Shown: piece after piece, positions 4,047 through 41,346 of the stretch
Layout of the letters: the number at the start of each line of letters is the position of its first letter
How positions within the stretch are numbered: the stretch's first letter is position 1
Source of the DNA: a virus
Virus record (IMG/VR): IMGVR_UViG_3300031951_000404
Reading direction: 5' to 3' (one strand)
Length of the DNA: 41,385 nucleotides
Program-made: the position numbers and the translations under genes
Notes under the pieces: generated by a model
What the model saw: the letters and a program-made list of their open reading frames with translations, nothing else
Databases searched by the model: none
What the model was told of the DNA's origin: nothing

Positions 4047-4135
4047 GTACGGCAGCCTTTCTTCTCATAGCCGTGATTGCCGAGTGCGCCGTCCTGTGGC
4101 TGGCCTATTCAATGGGGAGGGACATGGCGCAATGA
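4043..4135 (+). CDS. Micro-ORF, 30-aa single-TM peptide MSTAAFLLIAVIAECAVLWLAYSMGRDMAQ
   Basis: Hand translation. There are ATGA overlaps at both ends (4043-4046 and 4132-4135). Confidence 0.35.
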   Translation: MSTAAFLLIAVIAECAVLWLAYSMGRDMAQ

Positions 4136-4902
4136 GCAGATGGTTCCGCATGTACTCAGACGTTCTGGACGATCCAAAGGTTCAGAAGCTCCCCGCCGAT
4201 TTGTTCAAGGCATGGGTCAACCTCCTATGCCTTGCCAGCCGCAATGATGGTGTGCTTCCCGCACTGGAAGACATCGCCTTCGCGCTCCGCATGTCACAAG
4301 ATGTCACTGTGACAGTCACAGCGGAGCTTGTGAAAAGGGGTTTGCTTGATGAGTGTGACGGGCTTTCGCCGCACAATTGGGCCGAACGCCAGTTCAAGAG
4401 CGACACGCCGGAAGATGCTAAAGAGCGGAAAAGAAAGCAACGGCAGCGCGAAAAACAGCAGCAAAACACCGATAATGTCACGGAATGTCACAGTGACAGT
4501 CACAACGAAGTCACGCCCCCAGAACAGAGCAGAACAGATACAGAGCAGAGCAGAGCAGAGCAGACGCCCGCGCGCACTCAAGACCCAAAGCATTGGGAAG
4601 AGGTCCAAGACTTTCTCAAACAGCCTGACAGCCTCACGGATTGGGAGGTCGACTTCCTGCACTCGGTCAAGTGGAAGCCGTCGCTGACCGAATTGCAGCG
4701 CGAAAGCCTCAAGGGCATTCGAGACAAGCTGCGCTCAACCACCAATGGCGGGTGCATCTTGCCGTCAGTGAAGCGCGGAACCCCGGCGTATGATGCCTGG
4801 ATTGCCCACTATCGCAAGACCAAGGGCAAGGCCACGTTTTACGAGAAACTGGACGCCCTCACCGTGCCATCTGAGTTCCCCCCACAGGAGCAAGCGGCGT
4901 GA
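4132..4902 (+). CDS. Replication initiation / replisome-organiser-like protein
   Basis: The N-terminus MSRWFRMYSDVLDDPKVQKLPADLFKAWVNLLCLAS...GVLP is typical of phage replisome-organiser / DUF1376-type winged-helix domains. The gene carries iteron clusters internally, as lambda O does. Confidence 0.55.
   Translation: MSRWFRMYSDVLDDPKVQKLPADLFKAWVNLLCLASRNDGVLPALEDIAFALRMSQDVTVTVTAELVKRGLLDECDGLSPHNWAERQFKSDTPEDAKERKRKQRQREKQQQNTDNVTECHSDSHNEVTPPEQSRTDTEQSRAEQTPARTQDPKHWEEVQDFLKQPDSLTDWEVDFLHSVKWKPSLTELQRESLKGIRDKLRSTTNGGCILPSVKRGTPAYDAWIAHYRKTKGKATFYEKLDALTVPSEFPPQEQAA
4291..4323. repeat. Iteron cluster A (candidate origin element)
   Basis: atGTCACaagatGTCACtGTGACaGTCACagcg. (A)TGTCAC starts 10 bp apart, with an inverted copy forming GTCAC-T-GTGAC. 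Confidence 0.6.
4474..4565. repeat. Iteron cluster B plus a purine-rich (CAGAG)n tract (candidate origin element)
   Basis: aatGTCACggaatGTCACaGTGACaGTCACaacgaaGTCACgcc, with copies spaced 10-13 bp. This is followed by an almost T-free tract ending in CAGAG x4 (4541-4564). Confidence 0.6.
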
Positions 4903-14896: not shown

Positions 14897-16801
14897 GTGG
14901 CTCAAGGTGATCTAAGAGGTAACCTTACAGCCTCAGTTGCCAGCGTAACCAACCCGACCAACCTCACCGGATCGGTGGCCGTCTCTGTTGGCGACCTGAT
15001 CTATGTTGCCTTCTCGCAACAGACCGCCCTCACCGCAACGTCTGCGTCTGACAACCTCGGCAACACTTACTCAGCGGTAAACGCTGGCACGGACGGAGGA
15101 ACGCCGACACACCGCGCGTTCTATGCCCGCGTTACGACTGCCGGAACGCTCACGACGATTTCAGTTGCGGCGACTGCATCAACGAACGATGCAAGCGCGG
15201 TTGCCGCCGTCATTGAGGGGCCATTTATGGTTGGCCCTCTCGACGCCAATCCGGCTAATACGACAGACGGCACAACGCCGTTTACATGCCCAGCAACGGG
15301 AACACTGGCGCAGGCCGAAGAAGTCATCATGGCTTCCATCGGCATCAACTCCAACCAGACGGTTGCCGCGTCATCACCGTTTACCCTTTCAGGGACCGTT
15401 GCCCGCGCGAACATTTCAACTGGCGTCAGTCGGCAGAAGGTCAGCGCCACCACGACGCAGACACCGGAATTTACCGGAACCACGGCGGCTGCAGTTCAGA
15501 CGACGGCGAGCTTCAAGCTCGCACGGCTGGTAACCGCCGACCCCGGAAGCTTTACCGTTTCGGGAACAGCGGCAAATTTGGAACATGGCCGCGAGATAGC
15601 GGCAGACGGCGGCAGCTATAGCATCACGGGCACAGATGCCACGCTTGTGGGGCGGCCCCCCGGCATTTTCGACACCGGGATTTTTGACACCGGGATTTTC
15701 GATCACCCGAGTGTCGCCAAGACATTATCCGCAGGGGCGGGTGCGTTTGCGTTCACTGGAACGGACGCAAGTTTAGAGCGTGGGTTTGAGGTTGCCGCAG
15801 GGGCGGGTGCGTTTGCGTTCACTGGAACGGACGCCAGCCTTGAATATGGGCGTGAGGTTGCGGGCGGCGCGGGCAGTTACGCGGTCACAGGCACCGACGC
15901 CAACCTTGAATACGGGCGTGAGGTTCTGGCGGGGGCTGGCTCCTACGCAGTCACCGGAACCGATGCGAACCTTGAGTTTGGCAGGGAAGTCCTGGCGGAT
16001 GCCGGGGCATTCGCTTTTACAGGAACAGACGCAAGCCTAGAGTACGGCTTTGAAGTCCTGGCGGGTGCCGGGTCGTATGCCTTCACTGGCGTTGACGCGG
16101 CGCTTGAATATGGCCGGGAATTGGCAGCGGGTGCTGGTTCCTATGCCTTCACGGGTACGGATGCCACGCTGCTTTATTCTGGCGGGGCAAAGGTTCTTGG
16201 GGCCGATGCTGGTTCCTATGCTTTCACTGGAACGGACGCGAACCTTGAATATGGCCGCGAGATAGCGGCAGACGCCGGGGCTTATGCCTACACGGGACAG
16301 GACGCGAACCTTGAATATGGCCGCGAGATTGCGGCAGACGCCGGGGCTTATGCCTACACGGGACAGGACGCAACCCTTACCTATGCCGCATCGGCCAAGG
16401 CAATCGTTGCCGAACCCGGCGCGTTCACCTTCACGGGCACGGACGCAACCCTAGAATACGCCGCCGCCAACCAGAACGTACCGCCCCCGCGGCGTTATGG
16501 CAGTGGGCAGTACGGCGAACCCGCGAAACTCATCCTGTCATGGATGCCGCAAAAGAAGCGGAAAAAGGACGAAAAGGCCAAGGTTGAGATTGTCGAGGAT
16601 GCAATTGAGCAGGCGCTTGAGGCCGCTCCGGTTGCCCTGCCAATCAACCCCGAACAGGTCGAACTCGCCGCAAGGCTACTTCTTGCCGAGTATGGCTTGG
16701 CAGAGCTTCGCCGGATCAAATACGCCGAAACGCTGTTGCTTCGCATTGAGCAAGTGATGGCTGAAATGGATGACGAGGAAGTGCTGCTTCTTGCAGCCTA
16801 A
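14897..16801 (+). CDS. Repeat-containing fibre-like protein (13 x 22-aa repeats)
   Basis: 634 aa, GTG start. The N-terminal domain resembles the two 216-aa paralogues. The centre has the consensus AGAGSYAFTGTDANLEYGREV. The C-terminus is a charged helix. Confidence 0.8.
   Translation: MAQGDLRGNLTASVASVTNPTNLTGSVAVSVGDLIYVAFSQQTALTATSASDNLGNTYSAVNAGTDGGTPTHRAFYARVTTAGTLTTISVAATASTNDASAVAAVIEGPFMVGPLDANPANTTDGTTPFTCPATGTLAQAEEVIMASIGINSNQTVAASSPFTLSGTVARANISTGVSRQKVSATTTQTPEFTGTTAAAVQTTASFKLARLVTADPGSFTVSGTAANLEHGREIAADGGSYSITGTDATLVGRPPGIFDTGIFDTGIFDHPSVAKTLSAGAGAFAFTGTDASLERGFEVAAGAGAFAFTGTDASLEYGREVAGGAGSYAVTGTDANLEYGREVLAGAGSYAVTGTDANLEFGREVLADAGAFAFTGTDASLEYGFEVLAGAGSYAFTGVDAALEYGRELAAGAGSYAFTGTDATLLYSGGAKVLGADAGSYAFTGTDANLEYGREIAADAGAYAYTGQDANLEYGREIAADAGAYAYTGQDATLTYAASAKAIVAEPGAFTFTGTDATLEYAAANQNVPPPRRYGSGQYGEPAKLILSWMPQKKRKKDEKAKVEIVEDAIEQALEAAPVALPINPEQVELAARLLLAEYGLAELRRIKYAETLLLRIEQVMAEMDDEEVLLLAA
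15536..16459 (+). repeat. Tandem 66-bp (22-codon) repeat array, about 13 units, with an embedded 15-bp x3 repeat (15662-15706, GIFDT x3)
   Basis: The period was measured on the sequence: aaccttgaat at 16241 and 16307, and at 15902 and 15968. Some neighbouring units are nearly identical at DNA level. Confidence 0.9.
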
Positions 16802-37388: not shown

Positions 37389-37651
37389 AACTCATCCTCG
37401 CCGCCCTTCTCCTCGTTCAGCAATCCCCCTGCGGCCCTACGGGACAGGTTGAGGCCCGTATCGTGGCGCAGTACGGGGAAAGCATCGTGGGCGCTGGCGT
37501 GGTGCCTGGGGGCATCCTGTTCATTACCAGCAACCCGGACTCGGGAAGCTTCACAATAATGCTCCGCAAGCCAGACGGCACAACTTGTGTTCTGCTCGGC
37601 GGCAAGGGATACGCGACACAAGACGCAGTGAAAAAGGGGTTGCCGATTTGA
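37385..37651 (+). CDS. Small secreted protein (GTG start)
   Basis: N-terminus MKLILAALLLVQQSPCG. GTGA overlap upstream and TTGA overlap downstream. Confidence 0.5.
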   Translation: MKLILAALLLVQQSPCGPTGQVEARIVAQYGESIVGAGVVPGGILFITSNPDSGSFTIMLRKPDGTTCVLLGGKGYATQDAVKKGLPI

Positions 37652-39859: not shown

Positions 39860-40105
39860 TTAGCCAGACGTTCGATTTAATACAATCAACCCCGCAGCAA
39901 CCGCCGCATTGCGCCGCCTGTCGGCCTCGCGGGTGTACAGTTCCGCCTCGGTTAACCGCTTCCATCCGTACATGCTCATAAGCTGGTGCGCCGTGGCCCC
40001 GCCTTCCGCGGCGATGGTCGCCCCGGCCTTGCGGAGCCCGTGCAGACGGCCAGGAACCCCAGCCGCCACACAGGCCGCCCGGAACCAGTTTCCAAGGCTG
40101 GCGGC
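39860..40105 (-). pseudogene. int: Tyrosine recombinase (integrase) C-terminal remnant
   Basis: 81 codons: AASLGNWFRAACVAAGVPGRLHGLRKAGATIAAEGGATAHQLMSMYGWKRLTEAELYTREADRRR. The HxxR box and catalytic Tyr are present. About 250 N-terminal residues, including the first catalytic Arg, are absent from the whole genome. Confidence 0.8.
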
Positions 40106-40474
40106 TCATCTTTCCACTACACTCCCGTCCATCTTGCGTTTCCATTTTGAGGCTTTGGAACCGGGAAGCGGGTTCCGCGTTTCCCGAACCCCCGCATGTT
40201 TGTCCCGCTGCCGTACCGTCTTGGCAGCCAGGGGCGTGTCATGCTTCGCGCTCTTGTGCTTATGGCAGCGCGGGCAAACAGCAAGGCAATTATCAAGAGA
40301 ACTGTCCCGGCTATTGGCCCATAGAATGTGATGATCAAACTCGACTCCGTAACCAAGATCAGCTTGACAGCGTGTGGCATCTGGTAGCCCATAGAGTTGA
40401 CCTGTGGCCTCGCACTTCCGCCCAGATCGCTCCAGGGCCTCGCGCTTGACCTGTGTGGAAAAGTTGCGGCTCAA
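40106..40474 (-). CDS. HNH endonuclease (122 aa, TTG start)
   Basis: SRNFSTQVKREALERSGRKCE...VEFDHHILWANSRDSSLDNCLAVCPRCHKHKS. The TTG overlaps the TGA of the upstream Gly-Tyr ORF (TTGA). The track's 250-aa version adds an Arg-Leu repeat, which I reject. Confidence 0.75.
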   Translation of the reverse strand: MSRNFSTQVKREALERSGRKCEATGQLYGLPDATRCQADLGYGVEFDHHILWANSRDSSLDNCLAVCPRCHKHKSAKHDTPLAAKTVRQRDKHAGVRETRNPLPGSKASKWKRKMDGSVVER

Positions 40475-40749
40475 CGCATACGGCTCCGCAACGATGTGTT
40501 GACCGTGCCGTTGCCGTAGCCGTAGCCGTAGCCGTAGCCGTAGCCGTAGCCGTCGCCGTAGCCGTAGCCGTCGCCGTAGCCGTAGCCGTAGCCGTAGCCG
40601 GAGCCGGAGCCGTTGCCGGAGCCGGAACCGGAGCCGGAGCCGGCGCCGTAGCCGTAGCCGGAGCCGGAGCCGTAGCCGTAGCCGTCGCCGGCGCCGTAGC
40701 CGGAGCCGTCGCCGGAGCCGTAGCCAATTGGCCTCATGGCGGGGGCCAT
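40471..40749 (-). CDS. Gly-Tyr-rich low-complexity protein, (Gly-X)36
   Basis: MAPAMRPIGYGSGDGSGYGAGDGYGYGSGSGYGYGAGSGSGSGSGNGSGSGYGYGYGYGDGYGYGDGYGYGYGYGYGYGNGTVNTSLRSRMR. Every repeat codon ends in C (GGC/TAC/TCC/GAC). TGATG coupling upstream and TTGA coupling downstream. Confidence 0.55.
   Translation of the reverse strand: MAPAMRPIGYGSGDGSGYGAGDGYGYGSGSGYGYGAGSGSGSGSGNGSGSGYGYGYGYGDGYGYGDGYGYGYGYGYGYGNGTVNTSLRSRMR
40507..40722. repeat. Hexanucleotide tandem repeat (GCCGNN)36
   Basis: Counted: 36 consecutive units (216 bp) of GCCGTA/GCCGGA/GCCGTC/GCCGGC/GCCGTT without a phase break. Confidence 0.95.
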
Positions 40750-41045
40750 CAAAGCCCCCACTCAGCAGATACAGGCACGCAAAAAACTTCCGCGCCTTCG
40801 GGAATGTCCACATCAGCAACCGGGCGCAGATCAGCCTTTGCCTTTTTCGGGTTGTCAATCATTCCGGCGAACCCGATGGATTCCCACTTGAACACATGCA
40901 GCGCGCGGGAAAGCCGGATGCGTCCGTTCTCACGGGTAACATCGCCTGCAAAAATCCAGCCACGGTCCACCACGACAACAGCGCGATTACCGCCCGCTTT
41001 GTTGATTGGAGCATATTCCACGCCGTCAATAATCACGTTTGCCAT
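40749..41045 (-). CDS. Hypothetical protein (98 aa)
   Basis: ORF in the leftward operon. No motif recognised. Confidence 0.6.
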   Translation of the reverse strand: MANVIIDGVEYAPINKAGGNRAVVVVDRGWIFAGDVTRENGRIRLSRALHVFKWESIGFAGMIDNPKKAKADLRPVADVDIPEGAEVFCVPVSAEWGL

Positions 41046-41046
41046 T

Positions 41047-41346
41047 TTACTTTCCTTTGTTCGGGTTGAATTTCATAATCGGCTCAACAAACTTGTATCC
41101 GGCATCGTCCCGCGCCAGCCATCCGCGCTCAACCAGCGCCGTGACGCGGGCGTGAATGTTGCCCTTGCCCGTCAGCATCAATTTCGCCAACTGGTGAAAG
41201 CTGACGGCAAAGGGCCGATCATGTGGGCGATGCTGAACTAGCCAATTGTAGACGTGCGCCTGTTCCGGCGTCATGCCGTAGCGGTCACGGTCTGCGGGCT
41301 TGCCCAACGGATAGCCGGGGCGTGTGGCAAGGGCTAGGGCGGTCAT
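41047..41346 (-). CDS. Winged-helix DNA-binding-like protein (99 aa)
   Basis: TPEQAHVYNWLV...SFHQLAKLM..GKGNIHARVTALVERGWL resembles a MarR/LexA-type wHTH. Its start lies in the terminal overlap and is ATGA-coupled to ORF 85-510 across the junction. Confidence 0.5.
   Translation of the reverse strand: MTALALATRPGYPLGKPADRDRYGMTPEQAHVYNWLVQHRPHDRPFAVSFHQLAKLMLTGKGNIHARVTALVERGWLARDDAGYKFVEPIMKFNPNKGK

What the first reader, a model, noticed from the sequence alone, without database searches (positions are those of the whole stretch)
40471..40749. 36 uninterrupted GCCGNN hexamers encode a (Gly-X)36, half-tyrosine low-complexity protein coupled to an HNH nuclease
Positions 40507-40722 are 36 back-to-back GCCGNN hexamers. 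All frames stay open, which is why the ORF track lists RLRL, ATAP, VAVA and GYGY products.

Three observations favour the minus-strand Gly-Tyr frame:
1. Every repeat codon ends in C (GGC, TAC, TCC, GAC, AAC, GCC), as expected in a high-GC genome, whereas the Arg/Leu frame needs CTA and CGA.
2. Its ATG overlaps the stop of the upstream 98-aa gene (TGATG). Overlapping start/stop junctions are used at many other gene boundaries in this genome.
3. Its TGA overlaps a TTG (TTGA) that opens the HNH domain exactly at its expected N-terminus (SRNFSTQVKREALERSGRKCE). The endolysin uses the same TTGA device at 37648.

The product is MAPAMRPI-(Gly-X)n-VNTSLRSRMR. X is Tyr in about half the positions (18 by my count), otherwise Ser, Asp, Ala or Asn. 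There is no signal peptide and no hydrophobic core.

Dense [G/S]Y[G/S] sequence is the feature that drives phase separation and hydrogel formation in FUS-type proteins. I know of no characterised phage counterpart. Because it is early-expressed and coupled to a nuclease, three roles are worth considering: a condensate scaffold, a nuclease partner or inhibitor, or a decoy for a host defence.

At DNA level the array is a slippage-prone microsatellite that can expand or contract while staying in frame.
Basis: partly seen in the sequence, partly recalled or inferred. Interest (0 to 1): 0.75.

Follow-up and report, generated by a model that had tools for sequence, protein, structure and literature searches.

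The report
Phage glycine-tyrosine repeat protein cassette
The hexamer repeat encodes a real, disordered glycine-tyrosine protein that follows a small Sm-like barrel protein in every related phage genome I could check; the pair is uncharacterised, and my guess (untested) is that it forms a sticky scaffold early in infection.

Summary
The repeat is real. Positions 40504-40725 (minus strand) encode (Gly-X)37 with 18 Tyr, inside a 92-aa ORF (40471-40749).

The Gly-Tyr frame is correct. In all 93 related loci with enough downstream DNA, the homologue of the upstream 98-aa gene is followed at once by a same-strand (Gly-X)n ORF. These ORFs share an N-terminal motif (M-x3-[FM]-[RK]-P-[VI]) and a basic tail (G-T-[VI]-x-x-S...R-R).

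The conserved partner is the 98-aa gene, not the HNH gene. It models confidently as a small Sm/LSm-like beta-barrel (pLDDT 92.9) and is a distant relative of Pfam DUF6948. All eight DUF6948-type genes checked in deposited phage records also carry a Gly-X gene just downstream; most are mis-annotated or unannotated.

The HNH adjacency is confined to the window's own near-identical lineage. None of 214 related loci repeats it; phiPLPE separately has an unrelated HNH gene there.

Genomes with an identical 98-aa protein differ in the repeat by -6 and -138 nt, always in frame.

Function is unknown. My best guess is an Sm-like oligomer plus a Tyr/Arg "sticker" chain forming a nucleic-acid-associated scaffold in the early recombination module. 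This is inferred, not shown. I found no literature on it.

The parts
40749..41045 (-). Partner gene: a 98-aa small beta-barrel protein (Sm/LSm-like fold, distant DUF6948 relative). It is the first gene of the conserved cassette.
   Evidence: 2774 homologues, none with an informative name, and 202 representative clusters. AlphaFold2 pLDDT 92.9. Best PDB matches are Sm/LSm proteins (E about 1e-3, TMq about 0.5; 3by7 rmsd 2.1 A). BFVD matches are DUF6948 proteins, E 5e-5 to 8e-4. hhalign against DUF6948-type ORFs gives 78% probability, E 1.8e-5. No direct Pfam or PHROG hit.
40471..40749 (-). Gly-X repeat gene (92 aa), the second gene of the cassette. Its ATG shares one base with the partner's TGA (TGATG, 40747-40751).
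   Evidence: A same-strand (G-X)n ORF follows the partner gene in every assessable related locus.
40726..40749 (-). N-terminal motif MAPAMRPI. The family consensus is M-x3-[FM]-[RK]-P-[VI].
40504..40725 (-). (Gly-X)37 core, equivalent to a GGC-NNC hexamer microsatellite. X is Y18, S10, D4, A2, N2, T1.
   Evidence: Copy number differs by -6 and -138 nt in genomes with an identical partner protein.
40474..40503 (-). Basic C-terminal tail VNTSLRSRMR. Together with the last G-T of the core it fits the family consensus G-T-[VI]-x-x-[ST]-x-x-x-R-R; the median net charge of the tail across the family is +3.
40106..40474 (-). HNH endonuclease gene with a TTG start overlapping the Gly-X stop (TTGA, 40471-40474). 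It is a neighbour only in this lineage and is not part of the conserved cassette.
   Evidence: Pfam HNH 27.7 bits against a cut-off of 21.4. phrog_333 E 1.6e-16. The start is confirmed by the homologue in L081. Not adjacent to the Gly-X gene in any of 214 related loci.
41047..41346 (-). Upstream 99-aa winged-helix (MarR_2-like) gene of the same leftward early operon. Context only.
   Evidence: (25 bits, just under the Pfam cut-off). Erf (507-1190, minus) and NinB (85-510, minus) lie further upstream across the window junction.

Best explanation
What it is (shown). The repeat is the coding core of a real phage gene. The product is about 90 aa, disordered as a monomer, and built as a short N-terminal motif, then a strictly alternating (Gly-X)n core, then an Arg-rich tail. 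In the core, X is about 50% aromatic (mostly Tyr), 20% Asp and 15% Asn.

It is the second gene of a two-gene cassette. The first gene (the 98-aa ORF) encodes a small Sm/LSm-like beta-barrel distantly related to DUF6948. The two ORFs overlap by one base (TGATG), which suggests translational coupling. The cassette lies in the early leftward recombination and replication module of a lambdoid temperate phage. Repeat number changes quickly by 6-nt slippage or recombination and always stays in frame.

How it works (inferred):
1. Translational coupling makes the two proteins together.
2. The barrel protein oligomerises as Sm-like proteins do, and binds RNA, ssDNA or the Gly-X chain.
3. The chain supplies about 18 closely spaced Tyr stickers plus an Arg-rich tail. 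This is the Tyr/Arg grammar of FUS-type domains.
4. The pair therefore self-associates multivalently into a condensate, gel or cross-beta scaffold that concentrates or sequesters nucleic acid and proteins early in infection.

The HNH gene is a mobile neighbour, not a partner.
For: Cassette conservation:
- The upstream protein matched 330 viral contigs.
- In the 80 viral and 14 genome loci kept, every locus with downstream DNA has a (G-X)n ORF starting at the partner's stop.
- The N-motif and basic tail are conserved.
- Across 72 distinct proteins, medians are 35 dipeptides (range 8-72), 0.51 aromatic fraction of X, and tail charge +3.

Amino-acid-level selection:
- GAC (533) and AAC (406) are common.
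- CAC (His, one transition from TAC) is absent from the 40 commonest codons, all of which have at least 25 counts. Only 18 His occur among about 2500 X positions.

Other lines:
- Alternative sense frames carry stops in 31 and 40 of 73 loci.
- An independent scan for (GGCTAC)4 found at least 120 viral contigs. 48 have the 98-aa family in the same locus, in most directly upstream of the repeat. In 21 others the upstream ORF carries the DUF6948 sequence motif; the three representatives scanned hit Pfam DUF6948 at E 1e-22 to 1e-30.
- The 98-aa family links to DUF6948 by profile comparison and by structure.
- It has an Sm-like fold.
- Eight of eight deposited phage records checked carry a Gly-X gene just downstream: seven found with a DUF6948 query and one with the 98-aa protein. 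Five are isolated phages (PMBT5, NK-7, phiPLPE, Koroua, IKEMa6-1); three are uncultured or metagenomic records (CV-1-33, MW202898, MT835900).
- Fusion proteins holding both modules exist: P0186, P0296 and phrog_18306.
- Neighbouring genes are RecT, Erf, YqaJ, SSB, NinB and VRR-NUC, with no third conserved partner.
- AlphaFold2 gives the Gly-X monomer pLDDT 36.7.
- GYGYGYG heptapeptides self-assemble into amyloid-like fibrils (PMC8163036 and PMC10510724, abstracts shown).
Against: - There is no experimental data on either protein.
- The Sm-like assignment rests on borderline Foldseek E-values (about 1e-3, TM about 0.5). Oligomerisation and nucleic-acid binding are untested.
- The AlphaFold2 run on the Gly-X protein used a single sequence, so low confidence was expected.
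- In DUF6948-type cassettes the N-motif and the basic tail are absent. The Tyr/Arg argument therefore applies only to the 98-aa subgroup.
- Strict Gly-X alternation may owe as much to the 6-nt slippage mechanism as to selection.
- Genomic context is only guilt by association.
Confidence: 0.45

Rival explanations
1. Anti-defence or host-takeover factor. The Gly-X chain is a decoy, mimic or inhibitor that binds a host protein such as a defence sensor, nuclease or protease. The barrel protein acts as its chaperone or co-factor. No higher-order assembly is needed.
For: The cassette sits in accessory-gene positions of early operons, and in Pectobacterium phage Koroua it lies on its own strand between oppositely oriented genes. 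Repeat sequence and length diverge very fast while the partner stays 94-100% identical, as in arms-race genes. The same repeat is fused to various other domains (DUF7666 and a 'WHH..TGSC' domain).
Against: There are no hits to PADLOC models. PADLOC holds defence rather than anti-defence proteins, so this is a weak test. No known anti-defence protein has this composition (own knowledge). The cassette is conserved across phages assigned to very different host phyla, which argues against one host-specific target.
Confidence: 0.2
2. RNA or ssDNA chaperone with a tail supplied in trans. The barrel forms an Sm/Hfq-like ring that binds nucleic acid. The Gly-X protein regulates the ring as a separate disordered 'tail', like the Gly-dipeptide (RG) tails of SmD1/D3 or the C-terminal domain of Hfq. 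No condensates or fibrils form.
For: Sm-like fold. Natural fusions of the two modules exist. The cassette sits in the recombination and replication module beside SSB, NinB, Erf and RecT.
Against: Sm1/Sm2 motifs and a nucleic-acid-binding surface were not shown. 35-72 dipeptides with 50% Tyr is far more valence than a regulatory tail needs.
Confidence: 0.15
3. Virion or adsorption-related structural protein, as deposited annotations suggest ('adsorption protein', 'fibroin heavy chain-like protein').
For: Annotations in Eggerthella phage PMBT5 gp38 and Ralstonia phage NK-7. Gly/Tyr-rich proteins are structural elsewhere, for example sulphur globule proteins; one Gly-X relative has a weak Pfam SGP hit.
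Against: In the window the gene lies in the leftward early operon, on the opposite strand from the terminase, portal and head genes. The annotations look like low-complexity artefacts. There is no signal peptide.
Confidence: 0.05
4. One reading: a partner or inhibitor of the adjacent HNH nuclease. A variant is that the true product is an Arg/Leu-HNH fusion.
For: The TTGA overlap in this genome. Iodobacter phage phiPLPE also has an HNH gene after its Gly-X ORF.
Against: None of 214 related loci has an HNH relative directly downstream. The homologous HNH protein starts at the TTG position with no N-terminal extension. The Arg/Leu frame would overlap the conserved 98-aa gene by 110 nt, and one or other alternative sense frame carries stops in many relatives (31 and 40 of 73 loci). 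A lineage variant (L272) has the Gly-X gene without the HNH gene.
Confidence: 0.03
5. Either a chance ORF over a neutral microsatellite, or an element acting at DNA or RNA level such as a phase-variation tract or a structured RNA.
For: Extreme codon uniformity and copy-number instability.
Against: The frame, terminal motifs and gene position are conserved across hundreds of divergent phages. A 6-nt unit cannot switch the frame on and off. The RNA fold is no more stable than shuffled sequence (z -0.75).
Confidence: 0.02

Closest known systems
FUS-type prion-like low-complexity domains ([G/S]Y[G/S] motifs)
   Same: All 18 Tyr lie in G-Y-G context. The composition is polar, Gly-rich and free of aliphatic residues. 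The monomer is predicted to be disordered. In the 98-aa subgroup, Tyr stickers are combined with an Arg-rich segment.
   Different: The alternation has a strict two-residue period, there is no Gln, and Asp/Asn serve as spacers. Aromatic density is about 20% of all residues in the window protein, against about 13% in FUS LC (the FUS figure is own knowledge). It is a stand-alone 90-aa phage protein with an obligate Sm-like partner gene. Phase separation is untested.
Sm/LSm proteins with Gly-dipeptide (RG) tails, and Hfq with disordered C-terminal domains (Gly-rich in Acinetobacter) - own knowledge
   Same: A small Sm-like beta-barrel is associated with a long Gly-X dipeptide repeat. Occasional natural fusions of the two exist.
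   Different: Here the repeat is normally a separate polypeptide that overlaps the barrel gene. X is Tyr, Asp or Asn rather than Arg. Sm sequence motifs, ring formation and RNA binding are not shown.
Bacterial SSB: OB-fold plus Gly-rich disordered linker, reported to drive condensates (own knowledge)
   Same: A small nucleic-acid-type barrel plus a Gly-rich disordered segment, encoded in the same replication and recombination gene neighbourhood.
   Different: The fold differs (Sm-like, not OB). The linker is in trans and Tyr-rich. The tail is basic rather than acidic. ssDNA binding is not shown.
Pfam DUF6948 (PF22253) phage proteins
   Same: The 98-aa protein resembles them by profile-profile comparison and by structure. 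DUF6948 genes have the same Gly-X gene downstream.
   Different: The window protein does not reach the Pfam model, even at E 0.1. DUF6948 itself has no known function, and I found no paper naming it.
Sulphur globule proteins (Pfam SGP, PF17228) and silk fibroin (GAGAGS/GAGAGY)
   Same: Gly/Tyr-rich or strictly Gly-X alternating structural repeats. A Gly-X relative gives a weak SGP hit.
   Different: The window protein has no SGP hit and no signal peptide. X is mostly Tyr, Asp or Asn rather than Ala or Ser. It is 92 aa, cytoplasmic by inference, and phage-encoded.
Synthetic prion-inspired (X-Tyr)n heptapeptides such as GYGYGYG
   Same: Identical local sequence. These peptides self-assemble into amyloid-like fibrils (PMC8163036 and PMC10510724, abstracts).
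   Different: They are 7-residue designed peptides studied in vitro. The natural protein is 5-20 times longer, interrupted by Asp, Asn or Ser, and paired with a folded partner.

Membership tests
Conserved phage cassette 'Sm-like/DUF6948-type gene + (Gly-X)n gene' (defined here) | A (Gly-X)n ORF lies immediately downstream of, and on the same strand as, the barrel gene. | tested here: met
   The window has the TGATG overlap. Every assessable related locus shows the arrangement, as do 8 of 8 deposited phage records checked.
Conserved phage cassette 'Sm-like/DUF6948-type gene + (Gly-X)n gene' (defined here) | The subgroup motifs are present: N-terminal M-x3-[FM]-[RK]-P-[VI] and tail G-T-[VI]-x-x-[ST]...R-R. 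| tested here: met
   The window has MAPAMRPI and GTVNTSLRSRMR.
FUS-type prion-like low-complexity domain | Dense [G/S]Y[G/S] motifs in a polar, low-complexity, disordered sequence. | tested here: met
   18 G-Y-G motifs in 92 aa. pLDDT 36.7 with no secondary structure.
FUS-type prion-like low-complexity domain | Phase separation or hydrogel formation that depends on Tyr. | not testable with these tools
   This needs purified protein or imaging.
Pfam DUF6948 (partner protein) | Match to PF22253 at the gathering score (27 bits). | tested here: not met
   No hit even at E 0.1. There is only remote similarity: hhalign 78% probability, E 1.8e-5, and Foldseek E 5e-5 to 8e-4.
Sm/LSm superfamily (partner protein) | A small, strongly bent five-stranded beta-barrel fold. 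| tested here: inconclusive
   The top 50 PDB matches are Sm/LSm or Sm-like chains, apart from two designed TIP60 cage entries (reportedly built on an LSm module; own knowledge). However, E is about 1e-3 and TMq 0.44-0.54. The model has extra N-terminal strands and an inserted helix.
Sm/LSm superfamily (partner protein) | Ring oligomer that binds RNA through Sm1/Sm2 motifs. | not tested
   Only a monomer could be modelled.
HNH endonuclease (neighbour gene) | Match to PF01844 above the cut-off. | tested here: met
   27.7 bits against 21.4. phrog_333 E 1.6e-16.
Sulphur globule protein (PF17228) | Pfam match and a signal peptide. | tested here: not met
   The window protein has no SGP hit. The N-terminus MAPAMRPIGYG has no hydrophobic segment (read directly from the sequence).
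Phase-variable contingency microsatellite | A repeat unit that is not a multiple of 3, so slippage switches the frame. | tested here: not met
   The unit is 6 nt. The observed variants differ by -6 and -138 nt and stay in frame.
RiPP precursor peptide | A leader peptide plus conserved neighbouring modification enzymes. | tested here: not met
   No neighbour family recurs in more than 16 of 184 loci, and those that recur are replication or recombination genes. The part before the repeat is only 8 residues.

The most novel reading that the evidence does not exclude
A widespread, unrecognised two-gene phage module in which an Sm-like oligomer nucleates or regulates a Tyr/Gly 'sticker' polypeptide. 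The result would be a membrane-less compartment or gel inside the infected bacterium, a viral prokaryotic counterpart of FUS/Sm-type condensates. The material properties would be tuned by rapid in-frame repeat expansion and contraction.
Probability: 0.2. Interest if true: 0.85.

Novelty: new variant of a known kind. Interest (0 to 1): 0.7.

Why it matters
Tyr/Gly low-complexity proteins are central to eukaryotic condensate biology, yet I know of none characterised in phages.

This cassette is not a one-off. The partner family has about 2800 sequence clusters. It occurs in phages or prophages assigned to Proteobacteria, Actinomycetota, Chlorobiota and other phyla, including several isolated phages. 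It is routinely mis-annotated: called in the wrong frame, left unannotated, or named 'adsorption' or 'fibroin-like' protein.

Recognising the pair has three uses:
1. It gives a tractable bacterial system for sticker-spacer physics, with natural length and composition variants.
2. It assigns a first context to DUF6948.
3. It corrects gene calls over such repeats.

If the function proves to be anti-defence or organisation of replication, that would be a new mechanism class for small temperate phages.

Tried and rejected
- DNA search of the 2.4-kb region against deposited phage genomes: no match.
- Pfam, PHROGs, NCBIfam and PADLOC on the Gly-X protein and its partner: nothing informative. There were only low-complexity hits to TrAA12 and phrog_18306/10432.
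- PDB sequence searches with the partner profile and with two C-terminal domains of longer Gly-X proteins: no hits.
- Literature searches for DUF6948, DUF7666, 'fibroin heavy chain-like' plus phage, Gly-Tyr repeat motifs, and phage low-complexity or condensate terms: nothing on this family.
- Homology search with the Gly-X protein itself: only weak low-complexity matches, although these revealed fusions to DUF7666 and DUF6948.
- Exact look-ups of the window's 92-aa product, the HNH product and the RL-HNH fusion: none is in the protein collection. Only the 46-aa variant is.
- Special RNA structure in the repeat: z-score -0.75, rejected.
- Own promoter or terminator for the cassette: none convincing.
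- A conserved third gene: none found.
- Other DUF6948, DUF7666 or Gly-X genes elsewhere in the window: none.
- Idea considered and dropped: that X = Tyr/Asp/Asn reflects codons read by queuosine-modified tRNAs. His is rare, and Ser dominates in other subgroups.
Full report
**1. The observation**

Window 40507-40722 is 36 consecutive hexamers. Eighteen are GCCGTA and 35 of 36 fit GCCGNN; one is ACCGGA. Tandem Repeats Finder gives period 6, 37.3 copies, 40503-40725, score 292. No other array in the window has more than nine copies.

On the minus strand the ORF 40471-40749 reads MAPAMRPI-(G-X)37-VNTSLRSRMR, with X = Y18, S10, D4, A2, N2, T1.
- TGATG with the stop of the 98-aa gene (40747-40751).
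- TTGA with a TTG in the HNH frame (40471-40474).

Two details are wrong. Not all six frames are open: one plus-strand frame has 18 TAG stops and another has one. And "codons end in C as expected for a high-GC genome" does not hold. The window is 58% G+C. Its other long ORFs use GGC for only 48.5% of Gly and TAC for 46.8% of Tyr, against 97% and 100% in the repeat. The uniformity is a signature of repeat homogenisation.

**2. Which frame is real**

I used the upstream 98-aa protein as a handle. It matched 330 viral contigs, 14 contigs of bacterial genomes or MAGs, and 2774 protein clusters, none with an informative name.

In the 94 loci kept, a same-strand (Gly-X)n ORF begins at the partner's stop in every locus that has downstream DNA. 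The apparent exceptions are contigs that end inside the repeat, or more irregular repeats. One locus has only 8 bases left after the partner gene.

These ORFs share features in the Gly-X frame only:
- an N-terminal M-x3-[FM]-[RK]-P-[VI] motif
- a basic tail G-T-[VI]-x-x-[ST]-x-x-x-R-R

Across 72 distinct proteins:

| Feature | Median | Range |
|---|---|---|
| Length (aa) | 93 | 33-158 |
| Gly-X dipeptides | 35 | 8-72 |
| Aromatic fraction of X | 0.51 | 0.22-0.71 |
| Acidic fraction of X | 0.20 | 0-0.41 |
| Net charge of tail | +3 | -2 to +6 |

Substitutions at X are selected at the amino-acid level. GAC (Asp, 533) and AAC (Asn, 406) are common. CAC (His, one transition from TAC) is too rare to appear among the 40 commonest codons, and only 18 His occur among about 2500 X positions. 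The two alternative sense frames contain stops in 31 and 40 of 73 loci. The Gly-Tyr frame is therefore the translated one.

**3. The real partner**

The 98-aa protein has no Pfam, PHROG, NCBIfam or PADLOC hit. With an alignment of 78 diverse relatives, AlphaFold2 gives a confident, mostly beta model (pLDDT 92.9).

Its best PDB matches are almost all Sm/LSm or Sm-like proteins, including the LSm-like metagenomic protein 3by7 at 2.1 A rmsd. The scores are borderline, however (E about 1e-3, TMq about 0.5). Among predicted viral structures it matches DUF6948 proteins (E 5e-5 to 8e-4) and an Eggerthella phage PMBT5 protein.

Independently, I scanned viral contigs for (GGCTAC)4 and found at least 120 contigs, which split as follows:
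- 48 have the 98-aa family in the same locus, in most cases directly upstream of the repeat.
- 30 are cut at the contig edge.
- 42 have no detectable 98-aa family member. In 21 of these the upstream ORF of about 100 aa carries the DUF6948 sequence motif. The three representatives I scanned hit Pfam DUF6948 at E 1e-22 to 1e-30.

A profile-profile comparison links the two upstream families (78% probability, E 1.8e-5, 67 columns).

The strongest check used DUF6948 hits in deposited phage genomes, which were chosen without regard to repeats. All seven records I opened have a Gly-X gene immediately downstream, and so does Eggerthella phage PMBT5, which was found with the 98-aa protein:

| Phage or record | Status | Annotation of the Gly-X gene |
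|---|---|---|
| Ralstonia NK-7 | isolated | 'fibroin heavy chain-like protein' |
| Iodobacter phiPLPE | isolated | unannotated |
| Pectobacterium Koroua | isolated | 'hypothetical protein' |
| Vibrio IKEMa6-1 | isolated | record has no annotation |
| Chlorobiaceae CV-1-33 | uncultured (host assigned) | wrong MAMAMA frame |
| MW202898 | metagenomic | called in another frame (not the G-D/G-H frame) |
| MT835900 | metagenomic | record has no annotation |
| Eggerthella PMBT5 gp37/gp38 | isolated | 'adsorption protein' |

Proteins carrying both modules in one chain exist: P0186, P0296 and phrog_18306. Some phages have tandem Gly-X genes or a duplicated pair.

In other cassettes the repeat is fused to further domains, still downstream of DUF6948:
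- DUF7666
- an unnamed domain of about 150 aa

**4. The HNH gene**

It is a genuine HNH endonuclease. The TTG start is right: a 77%-identical homologue starts with ATG at the same residue.

The adjacency is not conserved, however. None of 214 related loci has an HNH relative directly after the Gly-X gene. In the closest relative holding both genes the order is HNH, full-length integrase, 98-aa gene, Gly-X gene. One lineage variant has the Gly-X gene with no HNH gene and no tail (L272).

In the window, the HNH gene abuts a remnant holding only residues 255-330 of that integrase. HNH is therefore a mobile neighbour. phiPLPE also has an HNH gene after its Gly-X ORF; I read that as coincidence or as a preferred insertion site.

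**5. Repeat dynamics**

Contigs from other samples that encode a 100% identical 98-aa protein carry Gly-X genes of different lengths:

| Source | Length (aa) | Difference from window |
|---|---|---|
| Window | 92 | - |
| L271 | 90 | -6 nt |
| L270 | 46 | -138 nt |

Flanks are identical and the frame is intact. These are short-read assemblies, so the alleles need confirmation. Still, the deletion joins two copies of a short GGCTACGGC repeat inside an imperfect array, which argues against a simple assembly collapse (inference).

Between phages whose partner proteins are 94% identical, the repeat composition already differs: Ser-rich in one and Asn/Asp-rich in the other.

**6. Context and mechanism**

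The window is a complete lambdoid-type phage genome. It has terminase, portal, major head, replication initiator and methylase genes on the plus strand. The leftward early operon is Erf, NinB, a winged-helix gene, the 98-aa gene, the Gly-X gene and HNH.

Across 184 cassette loci the neighbours are RecT, Erf, YqaJ exonuclease, SSB, NinB, VRR-NUC, methylases and polymerases. No third gene recurs in more than 16 loci.

Alone, the Gly-X protein is predicted to be disordered (pLDDT 36.7; single sequence, so a weak test). The mRNA has no unusual structure, and the cassette has no promoter or terminator of its own.

Steps shown:
- a real gene
- an obligate gene pair with overlapping or abutting ORFs
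- a small Sm-like barrel partner
- an early, recombination-module location
- fast in-frame length change

Steps inferred:
- the barrel oligomerises and binds nucleic acid or the chain
- the chain's dense, closely spaced Tyr residues and Arg-rich tail drive multivalent self-association, as in FUS-type domains and in GYGYGYG peptides that form fibrils (PMC8163036, PMC10510724)
- the result is a scaffold or condensate acting on nucleic-acid transactions early in infection

I put this at roughly 45%. The main rivals are an anti-defence decoy (20%) and a non-assembling RNA-chaperone tail supplied in trans (15%).

**7. Novelty**

I found no paper that mentions DUF6948, DUF7666 or such phage repeats, and no curated family covers the Gly-X protein.

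The ingredients are known kinds: a Tyr/Gly low-complexity domain, and an Sm-like barrel with a Gly-dipeptide tail. The combination appears undescribed: supplied in trans, phage-encoded, widespread, and with a rapidly evolving repeat.

Noticed in passing
window 39884-40111 (-): Only residues 255-330 of a relative's 356-aa tyrosine integrase are present (89% identity). The break coincides with the 3' end of the HNH gene (40106). This lineage seems to have lost most of its integrase next to the HNH gene.
   Followed up: partly
window 4520-4564 (+), inside ORF 4084-4902: Short direct repeats (CAGAG x8.8; a 21-bp unit x1.9) lie inside the replication-initiator-like gene. They resemble origin iterons embedded in an initiator gene, as in lambda O.
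   Followed up: no
window 15729-15975 and 16234-16375 (+), inside ORF 14897-16801: 66-bp tandem repeats (2.2-3 copies, 80-97% matches), equivalent to 22-aa protein repeats, lie in a 634-aa ORF of the structural region with no functional PHROG hit.
   Followed up: no
L265 2782-3108; L266 1772-2185; L267 about 1190-1460; L269 1783-2028: Deposited phage annotations of the Gly-X gene are wrong or missing: 'adsorption protein' (PMBT5 gp38), 'fibroin heavy chain-like protein' (NK-7), unannotated (phiPLPE, between gp84 and gp83), and called in the wrong MAMAMA frame (CV-1-33 gene 25).
   Followed up: yes
L158, L167, L182, L217, L280; L183, L219, L230; P0287, P0297, P0326, P0334: The same Gly-X repeat is fused to other uncharacterised domains: an unnamed domain of about 150 aa ('WHH.LTGSC..GR..FAR') and DUF7666 (PF24703), at either end. 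In the loci listed (L-numbers) the gene still lies downstream of a DUF6948 gene; the context of the P-numbered proteins was not examined.
   Followed up: partly
L077/L080 4276-4960; L055; L072 4267-4566: Some phages carry two or three tandem Gly-X genes, or a duplicated barrel-plus-Gly-X pair.
   Followed up: no
L002, L009, L020, L025-L027, L043, L046, L059, L066, L079 and others: Many metagenomic viral contigs end inside the Gly-X repeat. Assemblers break there, so the gene is systematically truncated or lost in viral catalogues.
   Followed up: no
L272 3297-3647: A variant with an identical 98-aa protein has the Gly-X ORF ending directly in ...GYGYGY*, without the basic tail or the HNH gene, followed by unrelated sequence. 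This is either an HNH-free arrangement or an assembly chimera at the repeat.
   Followed up: partly
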